Assembly: GCA_030295235.1 (NCBI GenBank) | Contig: AP026126.1 | Location: 434,001 to 498,000 of the forward strand | Reading direction: 5' to 3' | DNA from: Fistulifera solaris | Lineage: Eukaryota | Length of the DNA stretch: 64,000 nucleotides | Shown: piece by piece, positions 4,295 to 62,668 of the stretch | Position numbering within the stretch: the first letter of the stretch is position 1 | Layout: the number at the start of each line of letters is the position of its first letter | Translations under genes and position numbers: made by a program | Notes under the pieces: generated by a model | What the model was told of the DNA's origin: nothing | Databases searched by the model: none | Seen by the model: the letters and a program-made list of their open reading frames with translations, nothing else

Positions 4295-4581
4295 TACTAT
4301 AGCCCATACTGTAGGCTGTACGTCACCATGACTGCATTTCTGTCACGATCGAAACACGGGAAACTAATATAAAGGCAAAAAATTAATACCAACAATGAAC
4401 TTAGGAAATGTTCGTGAACATCTTATGGCGACCAATGTGTCGTTGCTATTTAAAAACTGATTCAAATGCAATATTCTTGATTTTTTTGCGTCGAAGAGCG
4501 TCCGATATCTTTCATGGAGGTTGTACTATAATCCCAAAGTGTGATTCGTTCTTCGCCGTGACTGCGGGTGTTGGTCGTGAG
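4295..4581 (-). repeat. Direct pair of the ~55-bp intergenic hairpin/CTATAGTA element (4295-4348 and 4524-4581)
   Basis: TACTATAGCCCATACTGTAGG..CCATGACTGCATTTCTGTCACGA and TACTATAATCCCAAAGTGTGA..CCGTGACTGC..GTCGTGAG; cores 230 bp apart (4326, 4556). Confidence 0.7.
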
Positions 4582-4610
4582 TCAAGATCGCAACTTTTTT
4601 TAGTGATCGA

Positions 4611-4813
4611 AGCGAAGATAAATGTTCCTCTGAGCGATTATCCAATGAACAACCGCAATAACAAGATCAACTTCGAATACAAAGCCAATCGGTAACTCAA
4701 CACTTCTTAATTAATGATTACTCTACTTCTGTTCGAACAAGATTGCTCTTCGTCAACACTGACGTAAGTCCGTCACACGTGTCATTTCGACTCATGACTG
4801 AATAAGTCTCGTT
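4611..4813 (-). repeat. 3' LTR (203 bp)
   Basis: Base-for-base identical by eye to 11035-11237. Confidence 0.97.
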
Positions 4814-4822
4814 CTCTCTCTC
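4814..4822 (-). other. Polypurine tract GAGAGAGAG
   Basis: Purine run on the element strand directly abutting the 3' LTR. Confidence 0.8.
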
Positions 4823-4887
4823 AATCGTAGCTTCGAACTTCTTCCTAAAAATCCTAAGTCTCTCTAAACATATAAACTTGACAAGTC

Positions 4888-7800
4888 TCACCAACCCATC
4901 AATAACCTGCGCTTTGTTTCAAACTCTCCCTTCGATAAGCCCTTCGTAAATATATCCGCTTTCTGCTCAGCCGTATCGATTCGTCCTTCGATTTCTCCAT
5001 CTTTGATATGCGAAATGAACCACCAATACTTGCAGCCAATATGCTTTGTCCGAGGGGTCATCTTTGGATAAGAATTGTTCATCATAGTAAGCGCTCCATT
5101 GTTGTCTTCCCACACAATAGAAACAGTAGACTCAGCACTTCGCTCAATCTTGAGATGCTCTGTCAACTCTTCCATTACCTCGCGTACAGGTAACAACTGT
5201 CTCATCGCCATAGATGCAGCAATAAATTCCGCTTCCGTAGTAGACAATGAGATCTCACTCTGCAATTTTGATCCCCAAAGTACCGGAACACCTCCAAGCG
5301 TAATAACATATCCAGTCCGACTTTTCACGTCAGGATCGTTCGGCGTCTTCAGAATTCCATAATCCCGCGAAATCAGCATCCACATATAGATCCAATCTCA
5401 AATCCTTATCAGGACGAATAATCATCCCACGATCTTTGGTAGCTTTCAAATATCGACCAATTCGTTTCAATGCTATCTCATGCACTCGCCCGGGCAATGC
5501 GTAAACCTCGCACATTGATGCACCGCAAATGCAATATCCGGTCGAGAGTTTGACGCCAAATACATCATCATTCCGACAACAGAGGCATACGACCACTTCT
5601 CAACACAATCTTCTCCATCAGGATCCTTTCCTAACGTTTTCGATTCAGCAGGCGTCGAACTCGTCCGACAGTCCTGTAAACCCATGGTAACCAAAATCCG
5701 ATCGATCAATCCTTCTTGTAATAGCTCAATCGACCCATCATCCTTTCTTTGAATCAAAATCCCAAGGAATCCAGCAACATCATCCTCAATATTCAACTGA
5801 AACCTTTGGAACTTCTCATTGTTACGTAAGTCATCAATCACTGCATCGATGTCGCGTTCATCGCGAGCGAAGAACAAACAATCATCAACGTAGGTCAAAC
5901 AAATCACTTTCTTCGACATAAACAAACAAGGCTCATTCTTCGACTGAACAAATCCTCGATCTTCCAATCCCTTCTTCAGACAATTAAAGAAGTTCAGGGG
6001 ACTCTGTCTTAAACCGTAAACACTTTTCTTCAATCTCAAAATGTATCCCGGACGCTCGAACCCTTTCGGCATCTCACAGAACACTTCCTCGTTCAGGTCA
6101 GCTTGCACAAACGCCAACGTGTAGTCGACTTGCTTCAGTAGCTAAGCCCAAGACGATTGACAGAATCAACAACAAGCGAACAGTACTCCACGAAACCACC
6201 GGGGCATAGGTCTCAAAGAAATCAACGCCCTCAATTTGACGATCTCCTTCGAATGCACCATCTCGCCTTAAATTTCTTGATCCGACCATCGGGTATCTCT
6301 TACATTTGAACGCCCCAAGTACTCGGCAAGATATTCGCTCCTTTCTCAACTGCGTCAGATCTCGGAACTACGTCCCAAGGATCCAAACTCTCTAACGATT
6401 CAATCTCTTCGACCATCGCTTGACGATAGCCTTCGCTATTGGGTCCATTCATCGCTTGATAATAGTTTGGAGTGTCTTCGTTGTTCGCTTTTGCAGCAAA
6501 CGCCAAAGGATGCAAATCATCGAGCAACCCGTTCTCATCAACGTTCGATCGCATCAACAATGCATGCGCACCCCAATTACCTTGCGACAAGATATCATCT
6601 TCAAAATCCAGACTCGCCAGAAAAACATCGTTCTCCCGACGGAAGACCAAACTCCCTTTTAACTTTCTCAATCAATTCAGACTCGGTCTCTTTTCCGAAC
6701 TCAGTAATATCGTCATTTGCAACATGGACTTCATCATCTGGCCCATAGAATCTTCCTTTGCTAACAGGCCTATTCACGAAATCAGAACCAAAGTATTTTC
6801 GATTCCAACGTCAGCGGTCTCTCACTTCCGACGGGGAGCAGACTCTTCCACATCCTCATCGCTATCACTCTCATCTCTCTCTGGAGCTAAAATAGGAACA
6901 TCATCTTGATCTTGATCCACATGAATCTGATTCGGCTCAACTCTAGGCTCTCGATGGCGAGGCCCTGGAGTCAAATTCCTTTCCTGAACTCGTCGTTTCA
7001 ACAACAGCTCTCTCTGTTTCTTTTCGCTATCAGTAAGCCAGTCCTCATGCAACAAAGGTAGCTCTTCACCATCCTCTGTCTCAACTTTATCCCGGCTAAA
7101 AGTCAATAGCTCTTCCCAATTCTTTGGCTCTGGCTCTTCTACATCAGGCTTTGGAATCAACGGAATCGTCAAACAAATCATCGTACACCACATGAAATTG
7201 CAGCGACACCGCTCCCGTTCTCAAATTCCGAATTAGCCCAATTGTACTCGCATGTCGCGTCGACATCCCTAAGAATTGACCTCTCGCGACTCTTTGGCTT
7301 CCACTTAGGCAATTTCTTTCCGTCTTGAATCCTAGTATCCAGAACATAGCACGGACACCCGAAGACTCTCATTCGGCTGAAGTACACTCGTATCCATCGT
7401 AACTCCAGAAAGTAGCTCAACTGGTGCCAGTCCTGAGTCCTGCTTTGGTAATCTGTTCCACAAATACACGGCATAGTCCACCGCCAGCGGCCATAAGTCC
7501 ACCGACGTTTCATTCGGCCAGTGAATCATAGCATGCAATAACATCGTCCTTGCACTTTCGGTCACGGTTCGGATCGCATTCTCTGCAATTCCGTTCTGGT
7601 GATGTGCACCGACACCTGAGAAATGAATTCGCTGTCCTTGCAACTCCAAATCTCTCAGAAACTCTCAGCGACTTGTACACTCCTAGGTCAGCCCGATACT
7701 CCTTGACTTCAACTCCATACGAACGAAGCTCTCTCGAACGCATGTTTTGACCGAATAGTTTCAGTCGACAAAGTAGACACTTGATTCTGCACAAACAAAT

Positions 7801-8650
7801 ATGTTGTAGCCGTATCCACAAAGATAGTACCACACTTGTACTTGTCATGCTCTTGCTCTTTTCCATAAGTATGTGACCTCCTACCAGATACACTTGACAC
7901 AAACTGATCCGTCGATACCATCTGACCTGGCGTCAAGATACCTTCTTTCAACGAACCATCTCTCTCTGGGACTTTCGACTTGTTTTCTGTCCCAATAGCC
8001 TTTCGTTTTGCTTTGCCAAACTGACATGATGCACAGATCGGCGGCTCACAAGAGGACGTAGACTTGTATTTTGTGCGCAAAATGGGCTCCTGCACTCTAT
8101 CCCCCTTCGAACTCGCGTGAGTCGCTGAATCCAAGGAAAATTAAAGTGGCCCAATCTATCATGTAACTGCTTCAGTTCACGCTGCGCCGGCGAAAGATTA
8201 AGATTCTCTTCCACAGCGACTTGAGGCGGCGTAAAACTGGGGAACACTGAAAGATCCTCAATAGAATCCGTCACTAAACGAGCAATCAGAAGTCGGTCAT
8301 GGGTGGCATGGAACGTCAACAACTTCTTGGTAAAAGGAAATCGAAAGACAGAACCAGTTTCCGTAACACGAAATTCACCACGACCCCCTCTGGCTTCAAT
8401 CTGCAAATGCACCTGTGGACTAAAGAGAGCGAACTTGAGCGTCAGGCACATAGAGCTCGTTTTCAATGCATGCTCTTGTCCAGTATCATCTCGAATCTTC
8501 CAGCAAACAGTACCAGAACCACAGACTGCGTGCCGTTTGAGCGATCCCAGTCAAAGACGAATCACTCGGCGAAAAATCAATAAAATCTTCTCGATGTGGC
8601 GTAACACCAGTAGACGCCGCCAGTATCGAAGACAATAGGGCGTATCATTC
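4888..8650 (-). CDS. pol: Copia pol (PR-IN-RT-RNaseH), broken by many apparent 1-nt indels
   Basis: PR 'PIVFDTG' at about 8615-8640; IN 'HDRLGH..CASC', 'STDQ', 'NGIAE'; RT 'KKSVYGLRQSP..YVDD'; RNaseH 'YVDADFAG..STTEAE..EDN..ADIFTK'. Confidence 0.92.
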
Positions 8651-9055
8651 GTCAGCTCCAAAGTAAATGCTCTGAAGCTGAAAGCATCCATCAACAGGAT
8701 CTTGATTGTTGTAGGCCAGCGGCTGTAAAGTCGCCAAGCATCCAACCAAACTGTCTTCCAACGAAGGAAACCGCAACCAAGAAAAGCGACCGAAACCACA
8801 GAGGAGATCCAGCAATTCTGGGTTGGCGGCATGCTTCCCTCGAACATCTCAGGAATCGTAGGAACTGGACGAATGGGTATATCTGCCCATCCTTTGATCC
8901 ACTCAGAAATCTCGTCTCCTATTGCAACAGGACGTTTCGTGACGCGTTTTGACTTCCGAAGTCTTGCTCCTGCGAAACCACAACAAGCGACGGCGTCGCT
9001 TTTTCTTTCCTTAACTCTCTCTCTGTCGCTAGCACAATTGGTCGGGCGACTAACA

Positions 9056-10948
9056 TCAAACCAAATTGGGGCAACAGTTCCAAATCCAATGATACCGTCC
9101 GCAACGAAGTACAAGCGAAGCGGCATTTCCATCAAAACAAGCTGACGAACAAGAACCATCAGCCACTGCTTCGAAGGTAAGAACTCCAATCAATAAAATC
9201 CAAAGTAGCAGCCCAAAAACTCCGAGCTTGCTCCAACAACTCAAGTTCATAAACTCCTGCACAATCCTGGAAAGTTTGGGCCATTTGCTCCATCGGTCCA
9301 GATAGCCAATGAAGCGGCCCATTAAAAACGCTGGCGTCAAGCGGCCGAAGTTTCCAGACTCTTTCTTATCATCAGACTTGTCTTTCTTTCCGTCAGACGA
9401 CTTGTTATCCGAATCATTCGCCATCATTGCCAACATAGCACGATGCTGCTCAGTGTTGTGATCCACCCACCGATTGCACCGGCCACACCAATGGTAAGTC
9501 TTGCCATTGATGGTCTTCGTGTGGCTTTCACCCTTCTTAGGCGGAATGCTGAAGGGATCCTTGTCTTTGGCATCATTAGATCCATTAGAATCACCTCCAC
9601 GACCTTGTCCACCATTACGACCACCACGGTTGCCACGACCGCCACGGCCACCGCGTCCTCCGCGTCCATTACCACGTCCAGATCCAGAACCGCGATTGCC
9701 AGACTCATTCTTGTCATTACCATCCGTTTTCTTCTTAGGACAGTCGGCGATCTTGTGACCTTTTTCTCCACATTCGTAGCAAGTACCACTAAAGAATCCA
9801 GAGTCGCCTTGTTTTCCATCTCCAGCAACCCAAAGACTCGCTCCCAATAGTCCTGCATACAACTCATTGGCTTTATCGGTCAACGCTTCAATCGAACAAT
9901 CGCGTCCCAACAGCTGGCTTGAGCCGTCAAATCGCTATTGAACTCCGGGGCGTTGAGCTCGCGATCAATCCACGTTTCACAATCTTTGCCATATCCGGAA
10001 CAACAGAATTAGCAGCCAGATTCATTGAATTTGCAAGCATATTGTAGACTCCCACTGCAACTGTGTTGTAGTCGCTACATTCTCTCCTGGAAAGTCCTTC
10101 ACCGTAAGCTTTTCAAACTGACTGATAAGTCCACGAATAGTAGACGAATCGCTGCACAATAACGTAATCCATCATCATCTTAAAATAGACCGGCCCGCTC
10201 TTGTAGGCAGCCTCTTTTCCAAAAGGTACACTCTGAGCCTGAGTCTCAATCCGAGTTCGCAAGTCGGGCGAGCAACAGTTCAAAATTAATTCTCCAGACC
10301 ATTGCAAATTTTCAACTTGCCAATCCGGCACCTCGTGCCGTAGAAATCACAAGCTTTCTTGATAGTCTCCATGTCCAACTTGTAATATCCGGTAAACAGA
10401 TCCACTAGCTCACTTCCTTCTGCCGGAATAGGCACCGAAAAATCAGGGTGGGCAACAAAATCCGACGGAATTTGGAAAACATCAGCCATGTCGTATCTCT
10501 CCGCAACCAAACGAACTTCAGCAATGCGTAGATCAACACGGTAAGCTTTGGACAGAGTTGCAACTGCTTCTCCATCGCTCAAGTTAATTGAATCCATGAT
10601 CTCAAACTTCGTTTCAATGCCAGCCGTGGCACTTTCATGAAGCTGAGTCCGCTCTTTTGGCTTCAAGCCATCGCGATCTTAAGCGCCTTCAACAGCGCTT
10701 TTCTTCCCCTTTACATCCTGGGTAGTACGATCAGTCGCTCGTGGAGCAACTCCAAGCATCCGGGTCAAATATTCCAAGCTTGCCATCCTGTTCTCAACCT
10801 CGCCGTCGTCGGCAGTCGGATTGTTGTCGTTCTTTTCTTCTTCCGTTCTTGCTTCTTGCCAGAAAATGTTCAAATGAAGCCCTCCAAGCACTTCTTCCTC
10901 TTCCTGTAGTGATGCAAGGCTCTCTTCCTCTTCTCTCCAATCAGTCAT
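9056..10948 (-). CDS. gag: Copia gag with CCHC knuckle, RGG tract and second Cys/His motif; frameshifted
   Basis: 'CYECGEKGHKIADC', 'GRGGRGGRGG', 'YHWCGRCNRWVDH'; upstream fragments 10679-10948, 10286-10666, 10113-10331. Confidence 0.85.
9277..9329 (-). promoter_or_regulatory. Putative -1 ribosomal frameshift signal (G_UUU_UUA plus bulged stem-loop)
   Basis: In-frame GCG TTT TTA, then A-TGGGCC-GCTTCATTGG-(CTATCTGGA)-CCGATGGAGC-AAAT-GGCCCA. Confidence 0.6.
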
Positions 10949-11020
10949 CCACCGGTGCGAACGACTTCAACAACTCTCAGATTCACGCTTTTCAATCGAA
11001 TCAATTCCAACCGGCGTGAC

Positions 11021-11034
11021 CTGGGCTCATAACC
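11021..11034 (-). other. Primer-binding site GGTTATGAGCCCAG, complementary to the anticodon arm of tRNA-iMet (half-tRNA priming)
   Basis: Plus strand CTGGGCTCATAACC reads as an initiator tRNA anticodon stem-loop with CAT; it abuts the 5' LTR; same type as Drosophila copia and yeast Ty5. Confidence 0.9.
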
Positions 11035-11237
11035 AGCGAAGATAAATGTTCCTCTGAGCGATTATCCAATGAACAACCGCAATAACAAGATCAACTTCGA
11101 ATACAAAGCCAATCGGTAACTCAACACTTCTTAATTAATGATTACTCTACTTCTGTTCGAACAAGATTGCTCTTCGTCAACACTGACGTAAGTCCGTCAC
11201 ACGTGTCATTTCGACTCATGACTGAATAAGTCTCGTT
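11035..11237 (-). repeat. 5' LTR (203 bp)
   Basis: Identical to 4611-4813; followed on the element strand by the PBS. Confidence 0.97.
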
Positions 11238-11386
11238 ATCGAGGAAGTTTTGATGACCATGAAACGTGACAGGAAACAGTTCACTTGCAATGTTCTTATC
11301 ATTCTTATCGAACGATGGTCCAATGCCCACAATCTAGTTCTTTGACACTTCCTACTCAATTTTTGACTAATAAAAGAGCCCCAGCT

Positions 11387-12389
11387 ATGGTGGATGTGGG
11401 CCAAATAGGGGAATGGCTTCTGTCGTTAACCGACCAAGACCAAGACCTGCTCCGAGATACGCGTGCATTTAGTGATTTTCTTGACGCTGCAAGCCGTTTA
11501 AAGAGAGCTCAACAACATATTACTCAAAATGACGTATTGGGAGCGGAAGACTGTTTGGTATTTTCGAAAAGTTCTTTTCTTCAGAACATTTTATCCGACG
11601 AAGTTGTGTCATGTGTGTTGGATTACTTGGAGTCACATTCTCTATGGCAGATAGCAACAACATGCACACGTTTACGTGACTTGGCCTATCGAAATGCAAG
11701 AAGACGGTGTAAACAAATCGAACGCGAACGTCAAGTGACAGACGTCATTCGTCTACTTTGTGCAAAAGAACAAATGGAAGGCTTATATTCGAACTGTAAT
11801 CGAAACGGAATGACTGTACCTCCCATCCCATTTCCTAGCGTGAGGATACCCATGCTCTTGCCCGGAAGAAAAGTCGTGGTCACTGAAGTAGGTGATCCGG
11901 AGTTCAACGGAGTCTATTTCTGCACGGGGTGTAACGGCAATGGCTTTGTGTTTACAAAGCCACGATATACGCTTCAGACAAGATTAACACGACAGTCGGG
12001 CCAAAATAATAAAGAACAGACGAGCTGTAACTCCCCACACCTATACTGCATTTTTGCGAGACGCTTTTCGGGACAGGTACGAAATTGCGTTCGGTGATTG
12101 CAGAGCAATGACGGTATCGACGTCTGACGGAATTTTCACGCAGGAAATGTTGTGGTACTTGTCGAAAGAAGTGTACCAAGATGCTGAGGAAGAAGCGCAA
12201 GTAATTGGAGACGGCCTCGTTGAAAGCTTTTTATTTTGGGCGCCGCTTCCTACGACAGAATCGACCACACCACACTTGAATTCCTATCCCAACCAGTCCT
12301 CGACTACACGACAAGCAGGTCAACGAACGTGGCAGTGTCTTGAAACGACAAGTCACCTGAACCCACCCATCGTAGAAGTAGTCGATTAG
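11387..12389 (+). CDS. F-box-like protein, intron 12077-12143
   Basis: 'LSDEVVSCVLDYLESHSLWQIATTCTRLRDL' F-box pattern; the GT..CAG intron joins the two ORFs in frame. Confidence 0.7.
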
Positions 12390-12448
12390 ATCAAAATTAT
12401 GAAGGTGCGTTATAGGTTATGATTCTTTTTATGAACATATCGTGTCGA

Positions 12449-13909
12449 TCAGCAAAGCTTCTGTACAATGAGAACCAGAGAAAGGACTAATATGGATGGC
12501 AGAGATCTTGATCCTGTAGAAACATCCGATTCGTTCAATGGATCACTTTGCACAGAATTGCCGGGCTGTTCGATTATGGATTTTGTTGTGTCATCTTTGT
12601 TTTCATTATGAGATTCTTCTGGAACAATTTCAACACTTTCGGCGAGGGCATCTGTTTCACCATTCTCGGGAATATCGTTTTTGATGGGTGCGGTATTTAC
12701 AGGCGAGTTTGTAGCAACTTTTGTCTCCACTGAAGCAACAGGATTAGATGTTGCTGGCACAACTGGAGAGGCTGTTGGTACAGACGTTGCTAGCGCCATT
12801 GGAAAGGTTGTCGGACTAGAGGTTGCTCGCGTTATTGTCGGGCTGGATGTTGCTCTTGTAGTCGGAGAGATTGTCGGACTAGCCGTGTATTCAGTGACGG
12901 ACGAGTCGATGAGGTTCGTCGTCTCTTGGACCGCTGGAGCGGCTGTTGCTGGTGCATCAGGGGAATTGATGCGGTTCGTCAACGCTTGCATGATAGAAGA
13001 AGAACCAGGAGAATTCTCTAGAGCGACGGAAGAAATTTCGGGTTCAGCCGTTTCCACTGGAGTGGTAGAGCTCGGCAAAATAGTGATTTCGGCGCAGTTG
13101 AAAAATTGCTCGGGCTTTAAAAATCCTCTGGATCCATCGAGAGGAAGTGGATAATTACAGACTGTCAATATGCTATTCCAATACTCTTCGGGAAGGATTT
13201 CATTGTCGGCATTGCCTCCTCTAAAATAATCGTGGTAATCCGCAGGATTGCACGAGTTTGCGCTAATGTAACGCCACTATTGCATGAATGTTTTGAGAAT
13301 TGGTAGAACATTAATTTGAAAAAACAGCGTCAATCGATCCCGACTTACCTGTAAAAGAACATTTTCACCTGAGACATTGTCGGGCAATTTGAAATCCATC
13401 GAAAATTCTTCTCCCAAGGAGAGGTATCCACGTTCCGGGTGTTTCGGATCCGCCGGCATGCCGTGCGCAATATCCTGAGCAAAGGTGAGACGATGCTGAT
13501 CGAAGCATTCTTGAGTGGATGCTCTGCCGTCCGGGCATGCGCTGACTTCGATGTGCCCCAAATGATGAGCTTTGATGATGGTATTGATTCGAACGATACC
13601 TCCTTGCTCGTACGTTGCTTGAGATTTCCACGGCATCGGTGACCCTGTAGAATCTAGCCAGTCATCGTAGTTGTGATCATGAATGGAAAGACCACAAACA
13701 CCGGCATTGCGGGTCAAGCAAGCGTGACAGTATTCGACGTACGGTGCTCCGGGAACTGGTGCCTGCTTTTCGCCGAGACCATCTTCATGGGCTACAAAGT
13801 TTCGACTGCGAGGCGAAGCTAAGTACCCATGTGCTCTTGTTTGATGAATTAAGAGGGAGAAGGAGAGAAAGAAGGAAAATAACGACTGATTATTCATTTC
13901 GAGCAGCAT
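12449..13909 (-). CDS. Lytic polysaccharide monooxygenase (AA15/AA10-like) with S/T-rich stalk and probable GPI signal; intron 13277-13348
   Basis: Signal peptide then mature His1 'HGYLASPRSRN', 'AHHLGHIE', 'VLLQ|WRY..ANSC', 'EQFFNCAEI'; T/S/P-rich linker; hydrophobic C-terminus 'SILVLSLVLIV'. Confidence 0.85.
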
Positions 13910-14589
13910 TGTCGGATTGTATTCTTTTTTTGTGGAATGAAAGAATGATGGGAGGAGGGAGTCGCACCTTTTTGTTCCAGTAAGATGTCGGAGGGATAAA
14001 AAATTCCATAAATGACTCCCCAGTACTAAAAACTAGCCCAACGACCTTCGGTTGATGACGTGCCGAGTATTGTGTGATGGCTTTTGGTCATTGACACGGA
14101 GAGGGCCTTTTTTCTTCTTTATGCCTCACAGGATGGGGTTAAATTTTTAGGGTTCTCAGCGACATTTCACTCGTAATGAATTTTTTCAACCACGATCCGT
14201 CAACTTCGCCCGATCCGTCAAGCCTCATGATTGTAGACCAATTTGTACCTCGTGACTGATTGACTCCCTCTTAACTCTTGACTTATAAGGCCAAAGGCCT
14301 TAAGCCCTTCAACGTTCAACATGATGCCAATCATGTACGAGGAGTCACGAACCTCTAACGTCTGCTCGTTGTAAGGCTGAAGATCGAGCGACTGCACGAC
14401 GCAAAAATCCGACGAAGCGCAACAACGGACAACGGTCCCTGCGTTGGAAAAAGGACGCAAAAAGACACTTCTTGACACCATTCCCCTCCTTTCTCTGTCA
14501 TCTTGCATGCTTTGCGAGGATACGAAGAAACTTATTTACAGTTTAAGGATTCTAGGTTTTGATTATCGAAGTACCGGGAACTTGACATC

Positions 14590-23347: not shown

Positions 23348-23753
23348 CCACGACTGCATTTCAGTCATAAATCAGGAGCTTTTCCGATCTGACAGCTACC
23401 GAACCACAGTTCGTTCTGCTAGCCAAGTAGGCTCCATTTGTCGTGACAACGATGCAATTACCATCAGCATCATATTTGCAAGAGACGGCTCGAATCTTTA
23501 CGTCAAAAATCTCGACGGATCGGTGTCTTCCCAGTTTACTATAGGCCAGCGTTGCTTTCCGCAACCATGACTGCGATTCAAATGCTTTGAAAATAATTAT
23601 CAAGCTGAAGTCCTATCCCTATAGCGCCAACAGCTTTTACAATGGACTTTTTAGTTTTTTATGTCGAAAATCTTTGTGGATACTTTACCCATTACCGGTA
23701 CCGGTAGTCCAAAGTGTAGGTTCAATGCGTTTAAGACTGCATTACAGTCATGA
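23348..23753 (-). repeat. Three copies of the intergenic hairpin/CTATAGTA element (23348-23370, 23537-23580, 23703-23753)
   Basis: CCACGACTGCATTTCAGTCATAA; TACTATAGGCC..CCATGACTGC; GGTAGTCCAAAGTGTAGG..AAGACTGCATTACAGTCATGA; core spacing 217 and 166 bp. Confidence 0.7.
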
Positions 23754-23953
23754 ATCGACGATATGGGAGTGGTAGGGATTATTGCGCGCCAGCCAATCCA
23801 TAAGTGCCGGGATTATATTCAAGTTGAGTGAAACACAGTTTGGTCTACACGTCATCATAAGCTGATATAGTGGGATGATTGCATGGAAGACAAAGGAAGC
23901 CGGAAGGGAACTCGATAGTAGATGTTCTATTCTCGACAAATCCATTATTTTGA

Positions 23954-50600: not shown

Positions 50601-50880
50601 CTCATGACTGAAAAGCAGTCTTGGCGAAGTATCTCCTACAGTTTCTGACTATAGTCAATTCTAAAGCGAACGATCTGACAGGGCCGTCAATGATCCAGGG
50701 CTGAATTTCAACCGCTATGAGAGGTAATTTCATCATCATCCTGAACAGGATTGCCGATGAACGGGCTAACCTTGGTGATCATGGTCTCTTTGTTTGGCCT
50801 GGACGTTTTTTGGCATTTACCTCGTGACTGAAAGCAGTCATGGGAGCGTTTCTCCTAATCTCACACTTTACGCAATAGTA
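50601..50880 (+). repeat. Direct pair of the intergenic hairpin/CTATAGT element (50601-50655, 50821-50880)
   Basis: CTCATGACTGAAAAGCAGTCTTGG..CTATAGT and CTCGTGACTGAAAGCAGTCATGG..CAATAGTA; 220 bp apart. Confidence 0.75.
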
Positions 50881-51036
50881 AATGTTGACCATTGATTTCT
50901 TGAGGACGATGTACGAAAAGCGGACGAGAGCCTACGAAACAACGAATCTGCAAAGCATTTTTAAACATTTTATTACCTTATCTAAGTAATCGCATCTCGT
51001 TTTTCGTCTCGTCGACATTTAAAGCACAAAAGAAAG

Positions 51037-51462: not shown

Positions 51463-51508
51463 AATAATACCTGGTATACAATCTTTATGGTTGTAATCAT
51501 TCTTACAA

Positions 51509-54099: not shown

Positions 54100-54363
54100 T
54101 ACTCTAGACCTAAATTGTAGACTCAACTTTACCACGACTGCATAACTGTCATGAGTCATGAATCATCGTGAAATAATAATAAAAGATGGCCACTATGTAA
54201 ATCCATGGTCCTTTATATCTGTAAATTTTGCTGAGCGGCAAAATAACAAGTATAGCAGCATTTGCAATGAATGCCTCGTTTCTTGGCGTCAAAAGCCTGG
54301 CATGTACGAGCTATAATTATGGATCCAAAATGTGACTTACATTCATGACTCATGACTCATGAG
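54100..54363 (-). repeat. Pair of the intergenic element (54100-54155; degenerate 54311-54363 with tandem TCATGAC)
   Basis: TACTCTAGACCTAAATTGTAG..CCACGACTGCATAACTGTCATGAG; second core TCATGACTCATGACTCATGAG 211 bp downstream. Confidence 0.65.
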
Positions 54364-54527
54364 ACCGATAATTTTTAATGGAAAACCGCCGGAGTAAACG
54401 ATTTTATCACTGATCGCATACATTACGTACGATTATTTGGTTGAAAAAGTTCTTGTTGCTGTTGTTGTTGTTTCACAGGAAGTTTTCTTTACCCGGATGA
54501 TCGCGTGTTGGTGAAGAAAGCACAAAA

Positions 54528-55682
54528 ATGATACAAAGAAATCGTCGCCGGAAGCTTCCGGCTTGTTTATTCCTACCAATCGGCGTGGTAACGTCATTAG
54601 CTGTACCAGTGTATTTTGACTCAACCAATCATCTTCATCGCGATATACAATACCATCCCGAGCAACCAGAACGCATTTCGACTTGTCTTTTGGAATTGGA
54701 AAAACATCAACAGAAGAATATTGGATGCATTGAGCTCATTGATGTTGCAGAGGTACCTTTGGATTTATTTTCAGAAATTTCGCACAAACACGATGGGATT
54801 TCGGCGACGGAGTTATCTCACGCGGAAGCGATGCTATTCAAGGTCCACACCGAAGACACTGTCTTGCAATTAAAACAACGATGCCACCGATCCAAGCAGA
54901 AACGACTGGACGAAGGAAAGCCCGCTTTGGGTCATATCGGCTATTTGGATTCAGACACTTACGTGACTACAGAGACGTACGACGTTTGCTTGCGAGCCAC
55001 GGCGGCATGGATCCGTGCGGCAGATTTTGTATTGAACAATGGCGGTGGTGCCATGGCTATGACCCGACCACCCGGACACCACGCGACCAAGAGCAAATCA
55101 AATGGATTTTGTCTTTTCAATTTTGCCGCTGCTACCGTTGCTCACATTTTAGAAAGAAACCCAAGTGCCAAAGTGAGCGTGTTGGATTGGGATGTCCACT
55201 ACGGCCAAGGGGTAGCCAATATTTTGATGGACGAACCACGGGCACGGTATGTCTCGATCCATCAATATGGTGCGTTTCCTTTTATGGGGCAATTCCTCAA
55301 GACCCATGGAGAGCATAACAATGTGCTGACTATACCAATATCACCCGATACAACATGGAGCAGTGGATACAAAAATAGCTTCGAAATGGCGCTCGATTTT
55401 ATTTGCAAACAAGATGAGTGGATACCGGACATTGTTATCATCTGCGGCGGTTATGATGCTCTTAAAAGCGACGAATTAGCCAGCGTAGATCTTAACTTTG
55501 AAGACTACGGAACAATGACGGAAATGCTGATTCTACATTTAAAGGCAACTGTCGGGGCTGAGGCTCCCAAGATAATGGTAGGATTAGAAGGAGGGTATCA
55601 GCTGAGTCCTACAGCCGCTGGTGGAAATCTACAGGACGCAGTTATTGAAACAGTTAAAGCAATTTATAGAATCATCTATTAG
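54528..55682 (+). CDS. Zn-dependent deacetylase (class II HDAC / bacterial-type); start uncertain
   Basis: 'HPEQPERI', 'RPPGHHA', 'GFCLFN', 'DWDVHYGQG', 'GYDA', 'LEGGY' catalytic residues intact. Confidence 0.92.
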   Translation: MIQRNRRRKLPACLFLPIGVVTSLAVPVYFDSTNHLHRDIQYHPEQPERISTCLLELEKHQQKNIGCIELIDVAEVPLDLFSEISHKHDGISATELSHAEAMLFKVHTEDTVLQLKQRCHRSKQKRLDEGKPALGHIGYLDSDTYVTTETYDVCLRATAAWIRAADFVLNNGGGAMAMTRPPGHHATKSKSNGFCLFNFAAATVAHILERNPSAKVSVLDWDVHYGQGVANILMDEPRARYVSIHQYGAFPFMGQFLKTHGEHNNVLTIPISPDTTWSSGYKNSFEMALDFICKQDEWIPDIVIICGGYDALKSDELASVDLNFEDYGTMTEMLILHLKATVGAEAPKIMVGLEGGYQLSPTAAGGNLQDAVIETVKAIYRIIY

Positions 55683-55889
55683 GTTGCTGTCACTTTTCAT
55701 TTTGTGACGGTGATTTTGGATGCCTCCTTCGCAAGTACCGGTACGAATGGGTTGATTTTTCGGGCAACACGCGATGCGACGACGACAAAAAAGCGGCAAT
55801 AAACTGTCTTCATCTTCAAACGCAATCAAAAACATCTTTTGCGATCTCTGTCAGCTGTAGAAAGTCCTTTTATCGTTCGTAACAGTAAA

Positions 55890-57519
55890 ATGGAGTCTAG
55901 CGATTCATCTTCGTCGGCCGACAGAAAGAAGCGACGGAAGGAGAAGAAGTCATCAAAGAGTCGAAAGCGGGAGGAGCGCCAACCGCGAAAGAGGCGACGA
56001 TCGGATTACGACGATGATGCTACTTCTTCCAGTGACGATGACAGTTCCTATCGAAGAGATCGAAAGCGTGAGAAGAAAGAGCGAAAGAAAAAACAAGAGG
56101 GGCAAAAGAAAGTGAAGAAAGAAAAGAAAAAGGGCTAGTAGAGACGCAGACGACTCTAGCAGTCAGAAATCCGACCCCTTGCACAGAAATTATGAGCTCG
56201 CAGATGCTCTTTTGAACATGTTGGAAGGTCACCCTGCACTGGTGGAAGATTTTCCTATCATGTTGATTCGTTTAGCAAGCGGAACTACATTTGATCTGAG
56301 CCAAATGTCGGACCGAGATGCCGCCCATTGCCTTGCACAAGTCTTCACCAAGCTAGAACCATTCGGTGTGGCACAGGATCATGCCGGTGCCTGGTGCTGG
56401 GTAGGAGGCAGTCGCTTATCGAATCCTTCTCACAATGAGCAAATCGTTCTGGTGAAGCTGGTACGCGCCATGTTGGATCAAGTAGGTTTCACTATGCAGG
56501 CAATTGAGCGGCACGATAATCCGGAAATTCCTTCCACCCCCGAGATTGAAAAGGTTCAGTCCCACAACACGACGGAGGAGATAGCCTACATGACAGCAGG
56601 TACGTTACGCGACTTCAATCCAGAACTGGCGCAGGAGCTGGCGGGCTTGTGTCGCATGATCTTAGACGGTGAAAGTATCGCTTTGGATGGTCTTGAGGAT
56701 AATCGCCTTCGCAATGCTCTTGAGAACATTTTCAAAGAATGCAGACTAGAGAAATTAGAGATGGAAAATGACGAAGAAGAAGACAACGACAGTGTTGCAT
56801 TTGGTTATGGTCTACCACAGGCTGCTAACGAGGAATCAAAAATGAGAATACGTTGTGTAATGCAAACCTGCGAGGAAACAGCGAAAAAACCAATTGTAAA
56901 AGGTCCTTTGAAGCCACCTAGCTCCTACACAAACCAGGTGGATGTCCTCTACGATGATTCCGAGTCTTCCGACGAAGAAGGTCCTGCCATGGTAGGATCC
57001 ACACGACAAACGAAGGGTTTATCAAAAGACCTCGTGGCCGCCCAAGCCGCGTTACGCAGCCGCCAGCTTGCGAACGCAAAACAAGGCATTGATGTCTCCA
57101 CAGCAGAAGCAATGGAGGGGCAATCACGAGAAGAGTGGATGGTGGTCCCGGGTAAACAGTTCGACTTTTTAAGTGCTGTCAAGGCGGGTAAACCCATGAC
57201 AAGTCGAAAGTTCGGCGCCCAAAGCAAAGTAGATGTAGCGAAGCAAGGCGAATCGATTCATCCGTCGATACAAGCCGAAATCCAGGCCATCAAAGAAGCC
57301 CACGAAGAGTCGCGTGGTCCATCGCTGATGGAACAGCATCGGGAGAGAAAATTGCAAGAGCAAGCAGCAGCAGCAGCTGCAGGAAAAAGTGAGTCTTGGA
57401 AATGGAATCGCGAAAAAGATCTCGATTCGGGAAGACGTGTCGACAAAGACGCCTTGGGCATGATTCTGGGTAGTGCTGGCAACGAATTGAAGTCCAAATT
57501 TCACGGCGGCTTCGGTTGA
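55890..57519 (+). CDS. GPALPP1/DUF3752-like nuclear protein; frameshift near 56090-56135
   Basis: Lys/Arg-rich N-terminus; 'REEWM..P', 'RGPSLMEQH', 'W.REKDL', 'L.SKF..G'. Confidence 0.7.
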
Positions 57520-57544
57520 GGCGGCATCACGTAAGTATTTCCAT

Positions 57545-58314
57545 TTAAATTGTCAGCACTCTTCGTTTCGTCCGCCTTTTTCTCTCAACAGGTTTCTCTG
57601 CTTTCTCTTGTAAATCTTTGAAATACTCGCTCAGCATCTTATCTACTTCATCGTCCCGCCCCTTGCGATACCCTGCTAAAAATTCAGCGACACAATCCGA
57701 CGCGAGGCGCATCATATCCCTCGCGAACTCTTTCAAATCTTCCGTGGATCGTATTCCGGTTCGTTCTTCGACTTCCTTTCGCAATGTATCCGCTCCCTCC
57801 CTTAGAAATGTAACATTCCGTTTCACATTTTTCTGAATTTTCTTTCCTGTCTTTTCAATTTCTGTTTCTTCTGATTCGTTTGGTTTTACTACCTCCTCGA
57901 CATTCGTCGCGTTCTTTTCCGGATTGTCTTCGACCAGAAATCCACTGGAAGTAAAGAATCCTTTCCATGTACCCTTGTATTCCACCCACGCCCTGGAAAA
58001 TACTTTTGCGAAAGGAGGCAAAGCTGTCAAAGCCTCGACCTGTGCGGGCGTAGGGATTCGGTTCGTCTTTGTACGGATTCGGAAACAAGATATCGGCTAC
58101 AGTTCTGGTATCAACTGCGTCGTCTTCTTGATTGTTGTGTAAAGCAGTCATCTTGGAAAGCCTGTTCTGACGCCGGAATTGCTGAAGTTCACGTCGACGT
58201 CGGGCTCTACCGGAAGTGTAACTAAAGAACGACGGGGACGATGAAAAGTAGCGGTAACTTCGGGAAATCGATGATTTTGGAACAGCGTATGGGGGAAACA
58301 AAGAGGGACACCAT
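57545..58314 (-). CDS. Uncharacterised, probably mitochondrial protein (frameshifted)
   Basis: Overlapping ORFs 57855-58376 and 57545-58030; R/S-rich presequence ('RYFSSS'); helical C-terminus. Confidence 0.55.
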
Positions 58315-58712
58315 TTTGGACTCAAAAAATTGATCAATGATGTCAATAAAGAAAAGTATAGACGAAATGAACACACTGCAAACCTTGTCTCATCGAAATG
58401 TTTTGTTTTTAGCGTTAAGTGCGACAGTAATAAAATTTGCTTATCGTTTGTTCATCGTAATCACATTACAGATGAGGTTACCTGTAAGCTCTACTGTGGT
58501 CAAGAATAATGACGTCATATGAATATGGTTGAAGAAGTAGACTCACATTCTGAGCGGTACTGAAAAGGAGGGAAGCTCATCCGCGAAAAGATCCATTTTA
58601 TTCTTTCCGTTTTCCAATGGATTCGTTCGAAGGCTCGCAAATCATCCTCCAGGTTCACTCGAATGCTCATAGATCATTTTCCGAATCAAAAAGCATTCGA
58701 GGCGACAAAACC

Positions 58713-60017
58713 ATGAAACCATTAATCACCGACCGAATCAAAGGATCACTGCTGGGGTGGGTCGTTGGAGATGCGTTGGCTGTCCCTGTACACTGGTATT
58801 ATAGCCCGGCCAGAATGCGAGCCGATTATGGAGATATCGATTCAATGATAACACCGCTCCCCACACACCCGGAAAGCATGGTGCAGGGTATGTCATACAC
58901 GGGGACGATTGATATTATGCACGACAAGGCCAAACACTATCAAGGAAATGCCATCAGTGATGCCATACTTTCCAAAGAAAAAGAAGAGTCTCTTCGCGAC
59001 GATCATGGTAACTTCGTGGGAGTTGCTCAAGAAGAGCGAGTGCACTATCATAAGTCTTTGTCGAAAGGTCAGAATACAGCAAATCTTTGTCTGGGTCGTC
59101 TGGCTGTTAGATATCTGGCAAATGTCAACAAGGGTGGAGCAGATGGCTACGACCCAGATGGCTTCTTGAGCGAATTTTATAATTACATGACCACGCCTCC
59201 TCCTTCTACACCGGATCCAGCACAATTGATTGCTCACAACGATACGTATTTGGATGTTTACTTGCGCGGTATGTTCGCCAAGGCATCTCAAAAGGACGAC
59301 CATTCACTTCACGATTGTGCCCTTTCCCAACGTGAGACGTGGAGTATTGGTTCCTTGGATGGGGTTGTCATGACGTTGCCCATCCTGGTCGCTTATTGCC
59401 GTGAGCCCGAATCCTACGTGACTGGAAGAGCCATCGAACATCACATGCTGACCCACCGATCCGTTACAGTCACCGCGGTTGTTTCGGTCCTAGTGCCCTT
59501 ACTGCTGGATCTGTTTCGTGGTGCGGATCTACGTTCCACCTTGGATGAAGCCATGTTGAAGATGCGTCCTCCTAAAATAACGGGCCGTGAACAGCGAGAT
59601 TCCTATCTTCAGTTTAAAGGCCCGGGACACATTCCCAAGCTTGAAAAGTGGAAGCAGCACATGGTACTAGCCGACGAAACAATTAAAGACTTGGTTCACC
59701 GGATGCTCGATTGTGAAGATGAGGATGTAGCGGGTTGGGGTGATCGCGACCATTCGAGACTTTCCACCGCTTGCTATTGTGAACACGCCTTTACGGTAGT
59801 TCTTTATTTGGCGTATAAGTATGCTGACAATCCTAAGAAAGCTCTACTACAAAATGTAAAATTGGGAGGACATTCTACGGCCCGAGGCGCTATTTTGGGT
59901 GCTATATTGGGAGCAGCACATGGTTCGGAATCGGTCCCATTCGTGCAAGATCTGGCAGCTCCGGATGTAGTAGAACAAGAGATTGATGCTTTGATTGGCA
60001 CAATTTGTGAAGTTTGA
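58713..60017 (+). CDS. ADP-ribosylglycohydrolase (ARH/DraG-like) family protein
   Basis: 'RIKGSLLG..VGDALAVPVHWYY', 'LTH', 'AL..N...GGHSTARGAILGAILGA'. Confidence 0.85.
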   Translation: MKPLITDRIKGSLLGWVVGDALAVPVHWYYSPARMRADYGDIDSMITPLPTHPESMVQGMSYTGTIDIMHDKAKHYQGNAISDAILSKEKEESLRDDHGNFVGVAQEERVHYHKSLSKGQNTANLCLGRLAVRYLANVNKGGADGYDPDGFLSEFYNYMTTPPPSTPDPAQLIAHNDTYLDVYLRGMFAKASQKDDHSLHDCALSQRETWSIGSLDGVVMTLPILVAYCREPESYVTGRAIEHHMLTHRSVTVTAVVSVLVPLLLDLFRGADLRSTLDEAMLKMRPPKITGREQRDSYLQFKGPGHIPKLEKWKQHMVLADETIKDLVHRMLDCEDEDVAGWGDRDHSRLSTACYCEHAFTVVLYLAYKYADNPKKALLQNVKLGGHSTARGAILGAILGAAHGSESVPFVQDLAAPDVVEQEIDALIGTICEV

Positions 60018-60379
60018 AGGAAATTCGAACAAAAATAAAACAAGTATACATGGTTGTAAATAGACTAGCTTTGACACAGTCTTATTTTTGTTTTATTAGG
60101 ACGTCCAAGCAATAATCACGGCAACGAGGAAAACTCTGCCAAGACTCGGGAGTCCCGAGCTCGTGAAACGTATGAGATTGACGTCATCCTCTCTTCAAGG
60201 CAGTGTAACATTTCGTCGCGTTTGTAAAAAGCGCCACCGCTCGTCAATCGAACACATCACACACTCGTATAACTCGAAACCACTCGACATCAACGACAGC
60301 GAGCTTGTTCATCACTATTGTATCACGGGTAGCTCACAACTCTTACCGTTTCTGCTAGCAAAGCCTTCTAATCACAACC

Positions 60380-61653
60380 ATGGGCTTGTACAGCGTGTTC
60401 TCGCTGCTGATTGCTCTTCACTTCTTCCTTTACCATGGCGTCAATTCATTTGTACAGCGATCGGATTTGATTTCAACTCGTTTCTCGTCGACGGCATTCA
60501 CCCGATCATCGCTGCAGATGCAAGCCAACAGTCCTCCTCCTTATCCTGTCCGTATCGCAGTTATGGGCGGAGGTAACTTTGGATTGGCGCTGAGCTCGAT
60601 CAGTGCACGCAAAGGCTTTCCGACTACTATTTTAGTGCGCGAGCAGGAAATTGCCGATAGCATCAATACGAATCACACGCATCCACGGTACATGCGAGAT
60701 GTGAAATTTCCGCCGACACTGCGCGCTACCACCAATCCGCAAGACTGTTTGCCGGATGCTACGTATATTGTGCACGCGGTTCCGGTGCAATACAGTCGCA
60801 AATTTCTGAACAGTGTCAAAGATTATATTCCTCCGGGTACGCCGGTCTTGAGTGGTTCGAAAGGAATTGAAACATCCAGCCTGGGATTCATGGCGGATAT
60901 TCTCAAAGAAACACTAGGGGAAGAGAGACCGTACGCCTTTTTATCCGGACCATCCTTTGCTCGTGAGATATGCGAGGGAGTTGCCACTGCTGTCGTCATT
61001 GCGTCAGAGGACTTGCTACTGGCCAGAGACTTGGCTACGTTGCTCAGTGACGGAAATTTCCGCGTGTTTACTTCGAGAGATGTCATTGGGGTGGAAATTG
61101 GCGGAGCAGTCAAAAATGTGATTGCCTTGGCCGCTGGTATGTGTGAAGGTCTTGGTTTAGGGACGAATGCCATGAGTGGCCTAGTAACACGTGGCTGTGG
61201 TGAAATGCGAAGGTTAGGACTGACTCTGGGTGCTCGACCTAGCACAATAGCTGGATTGTCTGGTAAGGAAGTGTGGAAGAACTGGCTCGGATCGATTACG
61301 ACTTTGCCATAAAGACATTATCTTACTGTGCTTGATTGTTTGCAGGTGTCGGCGACACATTTGGGACTTGCTTCGGTCCCTTGTCTCGCAATCGTCAGTT
61401 CGGCTATCGGTTAGGGAAAGGTGAAACGATGGAAGAAATCTTGGCTTCATCTTCCGAAGTTGCAGAGGGTGTAGACACGTCAATTGCACTTGTTAATTTT
61501 ATCAAACAAAATTGCAAGGGATACCGACTGGATTTGAAATACCCCATTTTATTCGGAGTCGCGGATATTCTTCAAGGCAAGCTAACACCACTTGACGGTT
61601 TGAAAGGTATTATGAATATGCCTTTCTTAATGGAGAACTTTGACGAGAGATAG
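60380..61653 (+). CDS. gpsA: NAD(P)-dependent glycerol-3-phosphate dehydrogenase, probably plastid-targeted; intron 61264-61345
   Basis: 'GGGNFG', 'SKGIE', 'SGPSFA', 'GAVKNVIA', 'GLS|GVGD...TC....SRN'; signal peptide 'GVNS|F'. Confidence 0.95.
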
Positions 61654-61741
61654 TGATGCAATCGGAAAGACTGCATACAAACACACTACGGTCGGTAAAT
61701 TTGAATTATCTAAGGCTAGCATTTCTTATGTGAGGTGAGTA

Positions 61742-62316
61742 TCAATAGCTACTGTACGTGAAAGGGACAGGTGGCCATTTAGGTGGATCGTAGCCCTTCC
61801 CTCCAATAGGAGAACACCGTAATAACCTCCAAGCAATCAGTATAACTCCTTTTTTTGGCCCAAATCGTTCAATTGCCTGGACGCCGTATTGTGAGCATGT
61901 AGGAACGAAACGACAAGCGGGTGGAAGGAGCGGTGAAATAAAATTTTGTAAAGACCCAAAACGGATATCATGGCAGTGGAGGTCATATTCTTTTGGCTTT
62001 TGTCGCTCTCGGTTATTCCTTTCAATGCATCATCCTCTGGTACGGACTCGTCTGATTCCGTGTAAAATCTATGCCTCGCCAGACGAGGGCGATGTGATGC
62101 AGCACGAGCCATCACAGCACCCAAAGTAGCCACAGTAACCAAAGTGTTCTTTCGCAGGATTCCTTTCGTCAAGGTCAATCCAAGCAAAGCGTGCTTTCCC
62201 CGGGGAACATCGTGTCGCAAAAGCACCGGCCACGGAGAGCACACCTGACAGCCTTCCACAAACCACAACAGCGCATTGCAGAGCATTACAAGGATCGTTA
62301 AGCGCAAAGCTCCCAT
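61742..62316 (-). CDS. yidD: YidD membrane-protein insertion efficiency factor, organellar; frameshifted
   Basis: Alternate frame reads 'SPLLPPACRFVPTCSQYGVQAIERFGPKKG.....WRLLRCSP.GG.GYDPP.WPP'. Confidence 0.88.
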
Positions 62317-62431
62317 ACTACTCTTGCTAAAAGATAGTTCAGCAAAGAAAAGAAGCGTTCATAAGTAGCGTATGATGCTCGCAACATAAAGCAACGATAA
62401 AATCGCAACAAACGAAACAATGTTGCAATGT

Positions 62432-62668
62432 CTCGTGACTGAAATCAGCAGTCATGGAGAAAAATTGAAAAGACTTTGGGACTATAGTAAAAGTTGAGCT
62501 AAACGATGATTCGACTCAATGAACACGAATAATTTAACAAACTTATCTCATTACGCAATTAATTCGATAGCGAAGACAGAACAATATAGAGAAAGTGAAA
62601 GTTAGACACACAAGGGACAATAAAAGGGGCTTAATTTCGTTTTACTCGTGACTGAAATCCAGTCATGA
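62432..62668 (+). repeat. Direct pair of the intergenic element (62432-62489, 62645-62668)
   Basis: CTCGTGACTGAAATCAGCAGTCATGG..GACTTTGGGACTATAGTA and CTCGTGACTGAAATCCAGTCATGA; 213 bp apart. Confidence 0.75.

What the first reader, a model, noticed from the sequence alone, without database searches (positions are those of the whole stretch)
4295..62668. Unannotated ~55-bp intergenic element, repeated about 12 times and phased in direct pairs 211-230 bp apart
Seen: approximate consensus CTCRTGACTGAAA(N0-4)GCAGTCRTGG (a hairpin/palindrome), then about 20-30 nt often ending in YACACTTTGGG, then CTATAGTA. Copies lie at 4295, 4524, 23348, 23537, 23703, 32809, 50601, 50821, 54100, 54311, 62432, 62645 and a partial one at 14249. 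All are intergenic, mostly upstream of or between divergent genes, and I saw none in coding DNA. Distant copies share long words, e.g. ACTTTGGGA(C/T)TATAGTA at 4524 (revcomp) and 62473. Five independent loci have two same-orientation copies with core spacings of 230, 217, 220, 211 and 213 bp around unrelated spacers. Inference: about 55 bp of element plus about 160 bp of spacer fits protein-bound sites bracketing one nucleosome, i.e. a genome-wide promoter/insulator or origin grammar. Alternatives are 3' ends of a Helitron-like rolling-circle family (hairpin then CTRR-like end) or a USE+TATA-type small-RNA promoter.
Basis: partly seen in the sequence, partly recalled or inferred. Interest (0 to 1): 0.8.

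Follow-up and report, generated by a model that had tools for sequence, protein, structure and literature searches.

The report
Dispersed satellite-like repeat in diatom promoters
The repeated 55-base motif is the best-preserved part of a roughly 220-base DNA repeat that has spread in short head-to-tail rows into the gaps between genes of a diatom, so the even spacing is simply the repeat's length, although its small palindrome may also be a protein-binding site that the host keeps at some loci.

Summary
The motif is real: 11 of 13 listed copies score on an independent profile, and the genome holds 401 exact palindromes (control 0). The spacers are not unrelated. Five of 6 window spacers match a family consensus, so core plus spacer is one ~220-bp monomer in arrays of 1-13 copies. 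The host has two ~90%-identical gene sets, which allowed locus-by-locus comparison. Most sites are shared, but copy number and spacing differ, and there is no helical phasing. Young arrays on different chromosomes are 88-92% alike, start and stop at different points of the monomer, and the one junction pair checked against an empty site shows no target duplication. That fits spread from circles or templated repair, as in Drosophila euchromatic satellites. A second repeat family with a similar period sits at 10 of 11 places on these sites. The palindrome shows no base-pair covariation but a fixed 5-bp gap. It is kept above the neutral rate at structurally stable loci (248/259 against ~0.895), but not when all loci are counted (436/482). 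Helentron, replitron, Crypton and ribozyme tests failed or were inconclusive, and no mobilising enzyme was found. This scan appears to have noted this family before on other DNA.

The parts
4294..4348 (-). core (palindrome + box 2 + box 3), last of a pair
   Evidence: 39.0 bits; kept in second gene set
4350..4522 (-). decayed monomer body ('spacer')
   Evidence: z 3.2 against consensus, 0 of 200 shuffles reach its profile score
4523..4582 (-). core with altered loop, first of pair; a Copia-like element starts about 30 bp away at 4611
   Evidence: 18.0 bits over 4523-4565; extent
14249..14259 (+). left-arm word only; not supported as a member
   Evidence: below 3 bits
23198..23286 (-). monomer body remnant after the last core of the triple
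   Evidence: spacer profile 13.4 bits
23326..23373 (-). core, third of triple
   Evidence: 29.8 bits
23374..23534 (-). best-preserved monomer body in the window
   Evidence: 51.9 bits, z 11.2
23535..23580 (-). core, left arm decayed
   Evidence: 15.6 bits
23582..23703 (-). shortened monomer body
   Evidence: 17.0 bits, 0 of 200 shuffles
23704..23756 (-). core, first of triple
   Evidence: 36.4 bits
32807..32876 (+). single core with expanded loop in a head-to-head gap (PSMD12-like gene / PPR-like reading frames); the second gene set has about 3 units plus the tail module here
   Evidence: 23.6 bits
50601..50657 (+). core in the 551-bp head-to-head gap between a GTPase and a prefoldin gene
   Evidence: 36.0 bits
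50660..50819 (+). monomer body
   Evidence: z 4.2; alignable in second gene set
50821..50882 (+). core; replaced in the second gene set by 2.8 kb (second repeat family flanking a 10-copy, 222-bp array)
   Evidence: 17.9 bits
54099..54157 (-). core in the Noc2 / histone deacetylase head-to-head gap
   Evidence: 33.4 bits
54158..54310 (-). monomer body; replaced in the second gene set by a ~1.1-kb array of the second family
   Evidence: 16.9 bits
54311..54365 (-). decayed core: boxes recognisable, palindrome replaced by a 7-bp tandem
   Evidence: sequence; not scored by the profile
62431..62490 (+). core
   Evidence: 29.6 bits; 37-nt island matched in run X5
62644..62694 (+). core; the spacer before it is the one with no detectable homology
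   Evidence: 23.7 bits

Best explanation
A dispersed, satellite-like repeat family. The monomer is about 220 bp: a 24-bp palindromic core, two short boxes at fixed distances, and a ~160-bp body. SHOWN: arrays of 1-13 monomers lie in intergenic gaps, mostly beside gene starts; many are older than the split of the two gene sets; copy number changes locally; monomers have moved between chromosomes since the split. INFERRED mechanism: recombination between direct copies releases one-unit circles or concatemers, or offers templates, and these are pasted into intergenic breaks by repair. This gives same-orientation rows, variable end points and no target duplication. Existing sites act as landing pads for newer arrays and for a second repeat family. 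Coding insertions are purged. INFERRED role of the palindrome: a double-stranded binding site for a dimeric protein, needed for the family's propagation and probably kept in place by the host at a subset of promoters.
For: Tandem arrays and a 220-bp consensus from 51 units. Spacer homology 5 of 6 and 11 of 14. Of 38 mapped cores, 22 have a scored orthologous core, yet arrays differ from 0-1 to 10-13 copies. Bodies at unlinked loci are 88-92% identical, above the 80.5% of fourfold sites between gene sets. Five young arrays start or stop at different monomer positions, and L033 is 2.0 permuted units. A 900-bp piece was copied 87 kb away with about 570 bp of flanking DNA and no target duplication; it is absent from the other gene set. 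Of 11 second-family clusters, 8 lie within 600 bp of a core and 2 more replace cores of the other gene set; a further case is. No covariation in the arms; the gap is 5 nt in 128 of 169. The same features are described for Drosophila 1.688/Rsp-like (PMC7403614, passages).
Against: Old copies have a sharp left edge and no shared upstream module. A subset has a defined right-hand tail (8 of 105 last cores, 0 of 124 internal; 15 of 20 tail-picked loci have a core just upstream). Both point to a bounded transposon-like ancestor. Circles were not observed. Conservation concentrated in boxes is more than neutral decay of a satellite predicts. No large heterochromatic parent array was looked for. Clusters favour head-to-head gaps (12 of 22 against 29% by length, p=0.01), which either targeting or function could explain.
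Confidence: 0.58

Rival explanations
1. Non-autonomous rolling-circle element of Helentron/HINE type. The monomers are its central repeats, the tail and closing palindrome are one end, and a Rep enzyme elsewhere moves it.
For: Strict polarity, a tail only after last cores, and a closing palindrome in a subfamily. The same palindrome builds the second family's arrays. One copy carried flanking DNA. Oyster HINEs carry such arrays (PMC7492417, passages).
Against: No shared 5' module and no 11-13 bp subterminal inverted repeat seen by inspection of the tailed copies. The left flank reads TGA rather than TT. Young arrays have arbitrary ends. No Helitron_like_N or PIF1 match in G000, though the first search had no working control and a small TC...CTAG Helitron-like insert shows such enzymes have acted here.
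Confidence: 0.18
2. Primarily a host cis-regulatory, insulator or origin module for head-to-head promoters. A dimeric factor binds the palindrome, pairs position a nucleosome, and the arrays are secondary expansions.
For: Arm retention 248 of 259 at 19 stable cores in 13 clusters (95% CI 0.93-0.98) against about 0.895 expected. Palindrome identity exceeds local noncoding DNA at 30 of 40 cores. Fixed gap without covariation. Bias to head-to-head gaps. A 37-nt island at 62427-62463 in a syntenic contig of run X5.
Against: With all 40 cores, retention is 436 of 482 (CI 0.87-0.94), not above neutral. Boxes 2 and 3 are not above neutral. Most gaps have no core (22 clusters among about 200 gaps). 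Spacing is neither phased nor conserved. Whole clusters are missing or replaced in one gene set. The prefoldin allele whose promoter lost the second core still appears in three RNA-like contig sets (RNA status is a guess).
Confidence: 0.14
3. Site-specific recombination target (tyrosine-recombinase type: two arms around a short asymmetric gap plus accessory boxes). One-unit circles excise and integrate at it.
For: Arm-gap-arm geometry with boxes at fixed distance. Many old clusters read core-body-core.
Against: Subtype switches and array ends fall at many positions, not in the palindrome. No PF00589 match, though that model may miss Cryptons. No 5-6 bp terminal direct repeat as in CryptonS (PMC3212892).
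Confidence: 0.05
4. Structured RNA or retrozyme-like element: monomers are transcribed, circularise and retro-insert as multimers, or the core is a small-RNA promoter.
For: Monomer size and permuted multimers fit RNA-circle spread (recalled from retrozyme literature, not tested).
Against: No Rfam match at gathering level in the window; only 3 weak matches, all far below their gathering scores, on 7 array loci. Monomer folding z about 0 on both strands. No compensatory pairs; A.C mismatches are about as common as G.T outside the consensus pair.
Confidence: 0.05

Closest known systems
Dispersed euchromatic satellites, Drosophila 1.688 and Rsp-like (Sproul et al. 2020, PMC7403614; passages read)
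   Same: Short arrays near genes; lineage-specific expansion; new arrays whose first and last monomers are complementary truncations; a second family inserting into the older one (82% there, 10 of 11 here).
   Different: Here the monomer carries a strongly conserved palindrome and boxes, some copies have a defined tail, the family is spread over all contigs listed, and no circles or parent array have been shown.
Helentron-associated HINE/DINE-1 elements with central repeats (PMC4067079, PMC7492417; passages)
   Same: Polarised, non-coding, tandem central repeats, a palindrome near one end, no target duplication.
   Different: No subterminal inverted repeats or 5' module seen, no TT flank, ends of young copies are variable, no autonomous partner found.
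Bacterial REP/BIME mosaics (recalled, no call)
   Same: Small intergenic palindromes in rows with linkers, used as insertion targets by other elements.
   Different: No hairpin covariation here and no Y1 transposase match; all copies are direct.
Centromere/ARS motifs of Fistulifera solaris (bioRxiv 10.1101/2021.11.10.468027, section 7 read)
   Same: Dispersed ~50-bp intergenic motifs in a diatom; motif 3 shares the short word GAAAATTCAGTCG with a variant of the right arm (by eye).
   Different: Two diagnostic words of motifs 1 and 3 are absent from the monomer, and 1 of 20 hits lies within 600 bp of a core. Motif 2 was not tested.
Replitrons (PMC10288648; passages)
   Same: Direct repeats at the ends; a palindrome near an end.
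   Different: Their repeats are short (6 bp in Replitron-1), and the paper reports none detected in diatoms.

Membership tests
Dispersed euchromatic satellite-like repeat | Head-to-tail monomers in short arrays at many unlinked loci | tested here: met
Dispersed euchromatic satellite-like repeat | Local copy-number turnover and spread to new loci with variable ends | tested here: met
Dispersed euchromatic satellite-like repeat | Presence on extrachromosomal circles | not testable with these tools
   needs circle sequencing
Dispersed euchromatic satellite-like repeat | Large heterochromatic parent array | not tested
   longest array seen is 13 units; genome not available as a file
Helentron/HINE | 11-15 bp subterminal inverted repeats at both ends | tested here: not met
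   no shared upstream module among 103 first cores; none seen by inspection in tailed copies
Helentron/HINE | Short palindrome near the 3' end | tested here: met
   closing palindrome in about 7 of 28 tailed copies
Helentron/HINE | Insertion into TT without target duplication | tested here: inconclusive
   left flank TGA-rich in 74 clean first cores; no clean empty site of a tailed copy obtained
Helentron/HINE | Autonomous Rep-helicase partner with the same ends | tested here: inconclusive
   0 matches; one search had no ringing control
Helitron1 | 5'-TC and 3'-CTRR ends with a hairpin about 11 nt from the end, A|T target (features recalled; AT target also) | tested here: not met
   homology runs on past box 3 into the body; a separate small element with exactly these ends sits inside arrays
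CryptonS | 5-6 bp terminal direct repeats, mostly TATGG; tyrosine recombinase | tested here: not met
   ends variable; TATGG occurs only as the reverse of one box-3 variant; no PF00589 match
Replitron | Short direct terminal repeats and HUH transposase | tested here: inconclusive
   no fixed termini in young copies; no suitable profile searched
Structured ncRNA / hammerhead retrozyme | Covarying stems or Rfam match | tested here: not met
Nucleosome-bracketing promoter/insulator pair | Unrelated spacer with conserved, helically phased distance | tested here: not met
Nucleosome-bracketing promoter/insulator pair | Protein occupancy and positioned nucleosome | not testable with these tools
   needs MNase/ATAC/pull-down
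Nucleosome-bracketing promoter/insulator pair | Site conserved in place above neutral rate | tested here: inconclusive
   248/259 at stable loci, 436/482 at all loci

The most novel reading that the evidence does not exclude
The palindrome is bound by a diatom protein that does double duty. It marks a subset of head-to-head housekeeping promoters for the host, and it makes those sites the landing pads where this family and sequence-unrelated, similarly nucleosome-sized repeats are copied in. That would be a site-targeted, self-renewing promoter satellite system whose turnover rewires promoters differently in the two parental gene sets of an allopolyploid alga.
Probability: 0.2. Interest if true: 0.75.

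Novelty: new variant of a known kind. Interest (0 to 1): 0.42.

Why it matters
Cis-regulatory DNA and repeat dynamics in diatoms are thinly described. This family has roughly 2,000-7,000 cores (extrapolated) in gaps next to gene starts. It differs between the two gene sets of one nucleus, which gives a built-in test of whether promoter repeats change allele-specific expression. If the palindrome is a host-bound site, it names a factor to purify and a possible natural integration target for engineering. If not, it is still a repeat family that annotation should mask, and it explains an eye-catching 'phased' pattern as ordinary monomer length.

Tried and rejected
Rfam: nothing at gathering level in the window; three weak matches far below their gathering scores on 7 array loci. 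No tRNA genes. Pfam family searches of G000 for Helitron_like_N, PIF1, Phage_integrase and Y1_Tnp gave 0 matches. These are weak negatives: one search had no ringing control, and the search is intron-blind. Metagenome scans: 0 hits, then 2 near-identical 57%-GC stretches with the palindrome only, no boxes or body, taken as chance. Sequencing runs: no holder on record as RNA. The RNA-like contigs did not cover the element-bearing bins; this is no evidence either way. Sequence look-up among earlier findings returned nothing. The idea that the second family's 215-mer is homologous to this monomer was rejected (p about 0.5), although the tail of this family ends in that family's palindrome. Inverted-repeat (MITE) architecture was rejected: 0 of 14 close neighbours in one region and 1 of 38 in the other are opposite in strand. 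The 41-of-58 spacer count includes training loci and is not used as evidence. Helical phasing was not found. The search for diatom nucleosome repeat length gave no usable value in the listing. Literature searches (listings only) showed no description of this family. Repbase and most subscription papers were not searchable. The supplements of the bioRxiv diatom genome paper, whose Fig. S16 shows unnamed intergenic repeats, could not be seen and may bear on novelty.

Full report
1. Observation. The listed sequences are present. The window is G000:C6:434001-498000, in a 51.7-Mb genome with compact genes. The genes beside the cores include housekeeping ones: PSMD12, PPR, GTPase, prefoldin, Noc2 and histone deacetylase. 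Two exact patterns match 183 and 401 times genome-wide, against 0 for reversed controls. A profile from other contigs recovers 11 of 13 copies, as does the refined profile; 54311 is decayed and 14249 is unsupported. In 394 kb and 390 kb of fetched DNA the refined profile finds 41 and 65 cores, and none in 1.57 Mb of shuffled or reversed control. That refined profile was trained partly on those regions. Extrapolation gives about 2,000 cores (from the ratio of profile hits to exact hits, 106/20) to 7,000 (from density).

2. The core is part of a longer monomer. Loci elsewhere show head-to-tail arrays with periods of 215-241 bp. Fifty-one units align to a 220-bp consensus. Window spacers look unrelated to each other (3 of 15 pairs at p<0.05), but 5 of 6 match the family body. 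So do 11 of 14 spacers in the C6 region, which was not used to train the body profile. First-pair spacing at 50 loci has a median of 219 (quartiles 215-231); 8 more pairs fell outside 170-280 and were left out of the phasing test. There is no 10-11 bp phasing. Across 215 dereplicated cores, conservation is concentrated in the palindrome (mostly 85-95%) and two boxes, with a variable linker. The left edge is sharp and has no shared upstream module. A tail word, GCAGACGGAAATTCTG, follows 8 of 105 last cores and 0 of 124 internal ones (background 24 of 3000). Of 20 new loci picked by that word alone, 15 have a core within 130 bp upstream, 3 more within about 330 bp, and 2 none. In about 7 of 28 tailed copies the tail runs on to a short closing palindrome.

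3. Two gene sets. A second copy of the Noc2 gene on contig C5 (92-95% amino-acid identity) led to a collinear region at about 80-94% identity; fourfold sites are 80.5% identical (29,924 sites). Alignment breaks fall at several of the element sites. Of 38 mapped C6 cores, 22 have a scored orthologous core (2 more could not be mapped). Array size differs: C5 has arrays of 13, 10, 7 and 5 cores where C6 has none or one, and C6 has clusters that C5 lacks. Orthologous pair spacing changes by 2 to 141 bp. At 50821 the C5 copy has lost the core and gained 2.8 kb. Run X5, a wetland sample whose listed letters equal the C5 letters at the 21 positions checked, has a 1,604-bp contig whose joints indicate both cores. 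So the replacement looks recent.

4. How it spreads. Bodies on different chromosomes reach 88-92% identity, above the divergence between gene sets, so dispersal continued after the split. Young arrays begin and end at different monomer positions; L033 is two circularly permuted units. A 900-bp piece with three cores and about 570 bp of flanking DNA was copied 87 kb along C6; the empty C5 site shows no target duplication (one event). A second family built of CCAGAAATTCTGG-like palindromes forms 11 clusters on C5. Eight lie within 600 bp of a core (10% of the region does), and 2 more replace cores present on C6 (p about 1e-6 against a generous 20%). A further C5 array replaces a C6 cluster outside that region. 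Its long monomer is unrelated in sequence (p about 0.5) yet has periods of 206-219 bp. Sproul et al. (PMC7403614, passages) describe the same features for Drosophila euchromatic satellites and attribute them to circles and repair-mediated insertion. The mechanism here is inferred by analogy; no circle was observed.

5. Is the palindrome functional? In 169 cores not chosen by the search pattern the arms show no compensatory changes, and A.C mismatches are about as common as G.T ones outside the consensus pair. The gap is 5 nt in 128 of them. The monomer folds no better than shuffles. That favours a double-stranded binding site over a hairpin. Where C6 has the consensus base, C5 keeps it at 248 of 259 arm positions at 19 structurally stable cores (cluster bootstrap 0.93-0.98), against about 0.895 per branch expected from fourfold sites. 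The reverse direction gives 229 of 241 (largely the same loci). In one search, 20 of 57 mapped cores were dropped as ambiguous. With all 40 C6 cores included, retention is 436 of 482 (0.87-0.94), not above neutral, though misalignment lowers that figure. Boxes 2 and 3 are not above neutral. No core of 40 lies in coding-like DNA, and 12 of 22 clusters lie in head-to-head gaps (p=0.01); gene calling there was approximate. Most gaps have no core. The C5 prefoldin allele, which lacks the second core, is present in three RNA-like contig sets, but those runs are only guessed to be RNA and contigs do not measure expression. Verdict: constraint at a subset of loci is plausible, not proven; conversion back to the consensus could mimic it.

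6. Known families. HINE features were taken from PMC4067079 and PMC7492417 (passages). An end palindrome and central repeats are present; subterminal inverted repeats, a 5' module and a TT flank are not seen. Classic Helitron ends belong to a different small element inserted in three arrays. Replitrons were not detected in diatoms by their describer (passages). CryptonS termini do not fit (passages). The published Fistulifera centromere/ARS motifs 1 and 3 (section 7 read in full; also part 1 of 6 and passages) are a separate family. No mobilising enzyme was found (weak negatives).

7. Novelty. Searches listed no description of this family; Repbase and the preprint's supplements were not seen. 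Earlier notes of this scan appear to describe the same family on other contigs and split between mobile-repeat and promoter readings; their sequences were hidden, so identity was not checked. This work adds the gene-set comparison, the tail module, the permuted ends and the landing-pad pattern. It works like a dispersed euchromatic satellite with a conserved binding box; it is not a demonstrated member of any transposon family. Interest 0.42.

Noticed in passing
window 4611-11240: Copia-like LTR retroelement with two identical 206-bp terminal repeats and an RVT_2 match, reading frames in pieces; absent from the second gene set; inserted about 30 bp from the 4523 core.
   Followed up: partly
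L164 (G000:C5:960100-962800); G000:C5 near 515k, 569k, 619k, 678k, 731k: Second repeat family of CCAGAAATTCTGG-like palindromes with periods of 33-34, about 52 and 206-219 bp; 86 hits on C5 against 4 on C6; arrays replace intergenic DNA.
   Followed up: partly
L031, L058 and G000:C5 near 591.4k: Small (~170 bp) element with TC start, end hairpin and CTAG, inserted inside monomers; L031 and L058 carry it at the same monomer position on different contigs.
   Followed up: partly
L015, L067, L165 and G000:C5 near 672.4k: About 80-bp miniature element with 19-bp terminal inverted repeats, seen several times beside these arrays.
   Followed up: no
G000:C6 near 606.9k; G000:C5 near 468.3k: Words of the published centromere/ARS motifs occur as dispersed single copies (20 hits in 784 kb), so that motif set may itself be a dispersed repeat.
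   Followed up: partly
L031, about 3160-5240: Array with alternating 215/240-bp monomers forming a 456-bp higher-order unit.
   Followed up: no
family-wide: The tail word reads as a diverged direct copy of the core palindrome, and the centres of the core, the tail, the second family and published motif 3 all contain a G-AAAT(T)-C word; one protein might read all of them (by eye, untested).
   Followed up: no
window 3189-4208: Methyltransferase with a weak DOT1 match just over the Pfam cut-off.
   Followed up: no
G000:C5 about 534.7-537.6k: A gene next to the 13-copy array is present in extra diverged copies on C5 relative to C6.
   Followed up: no
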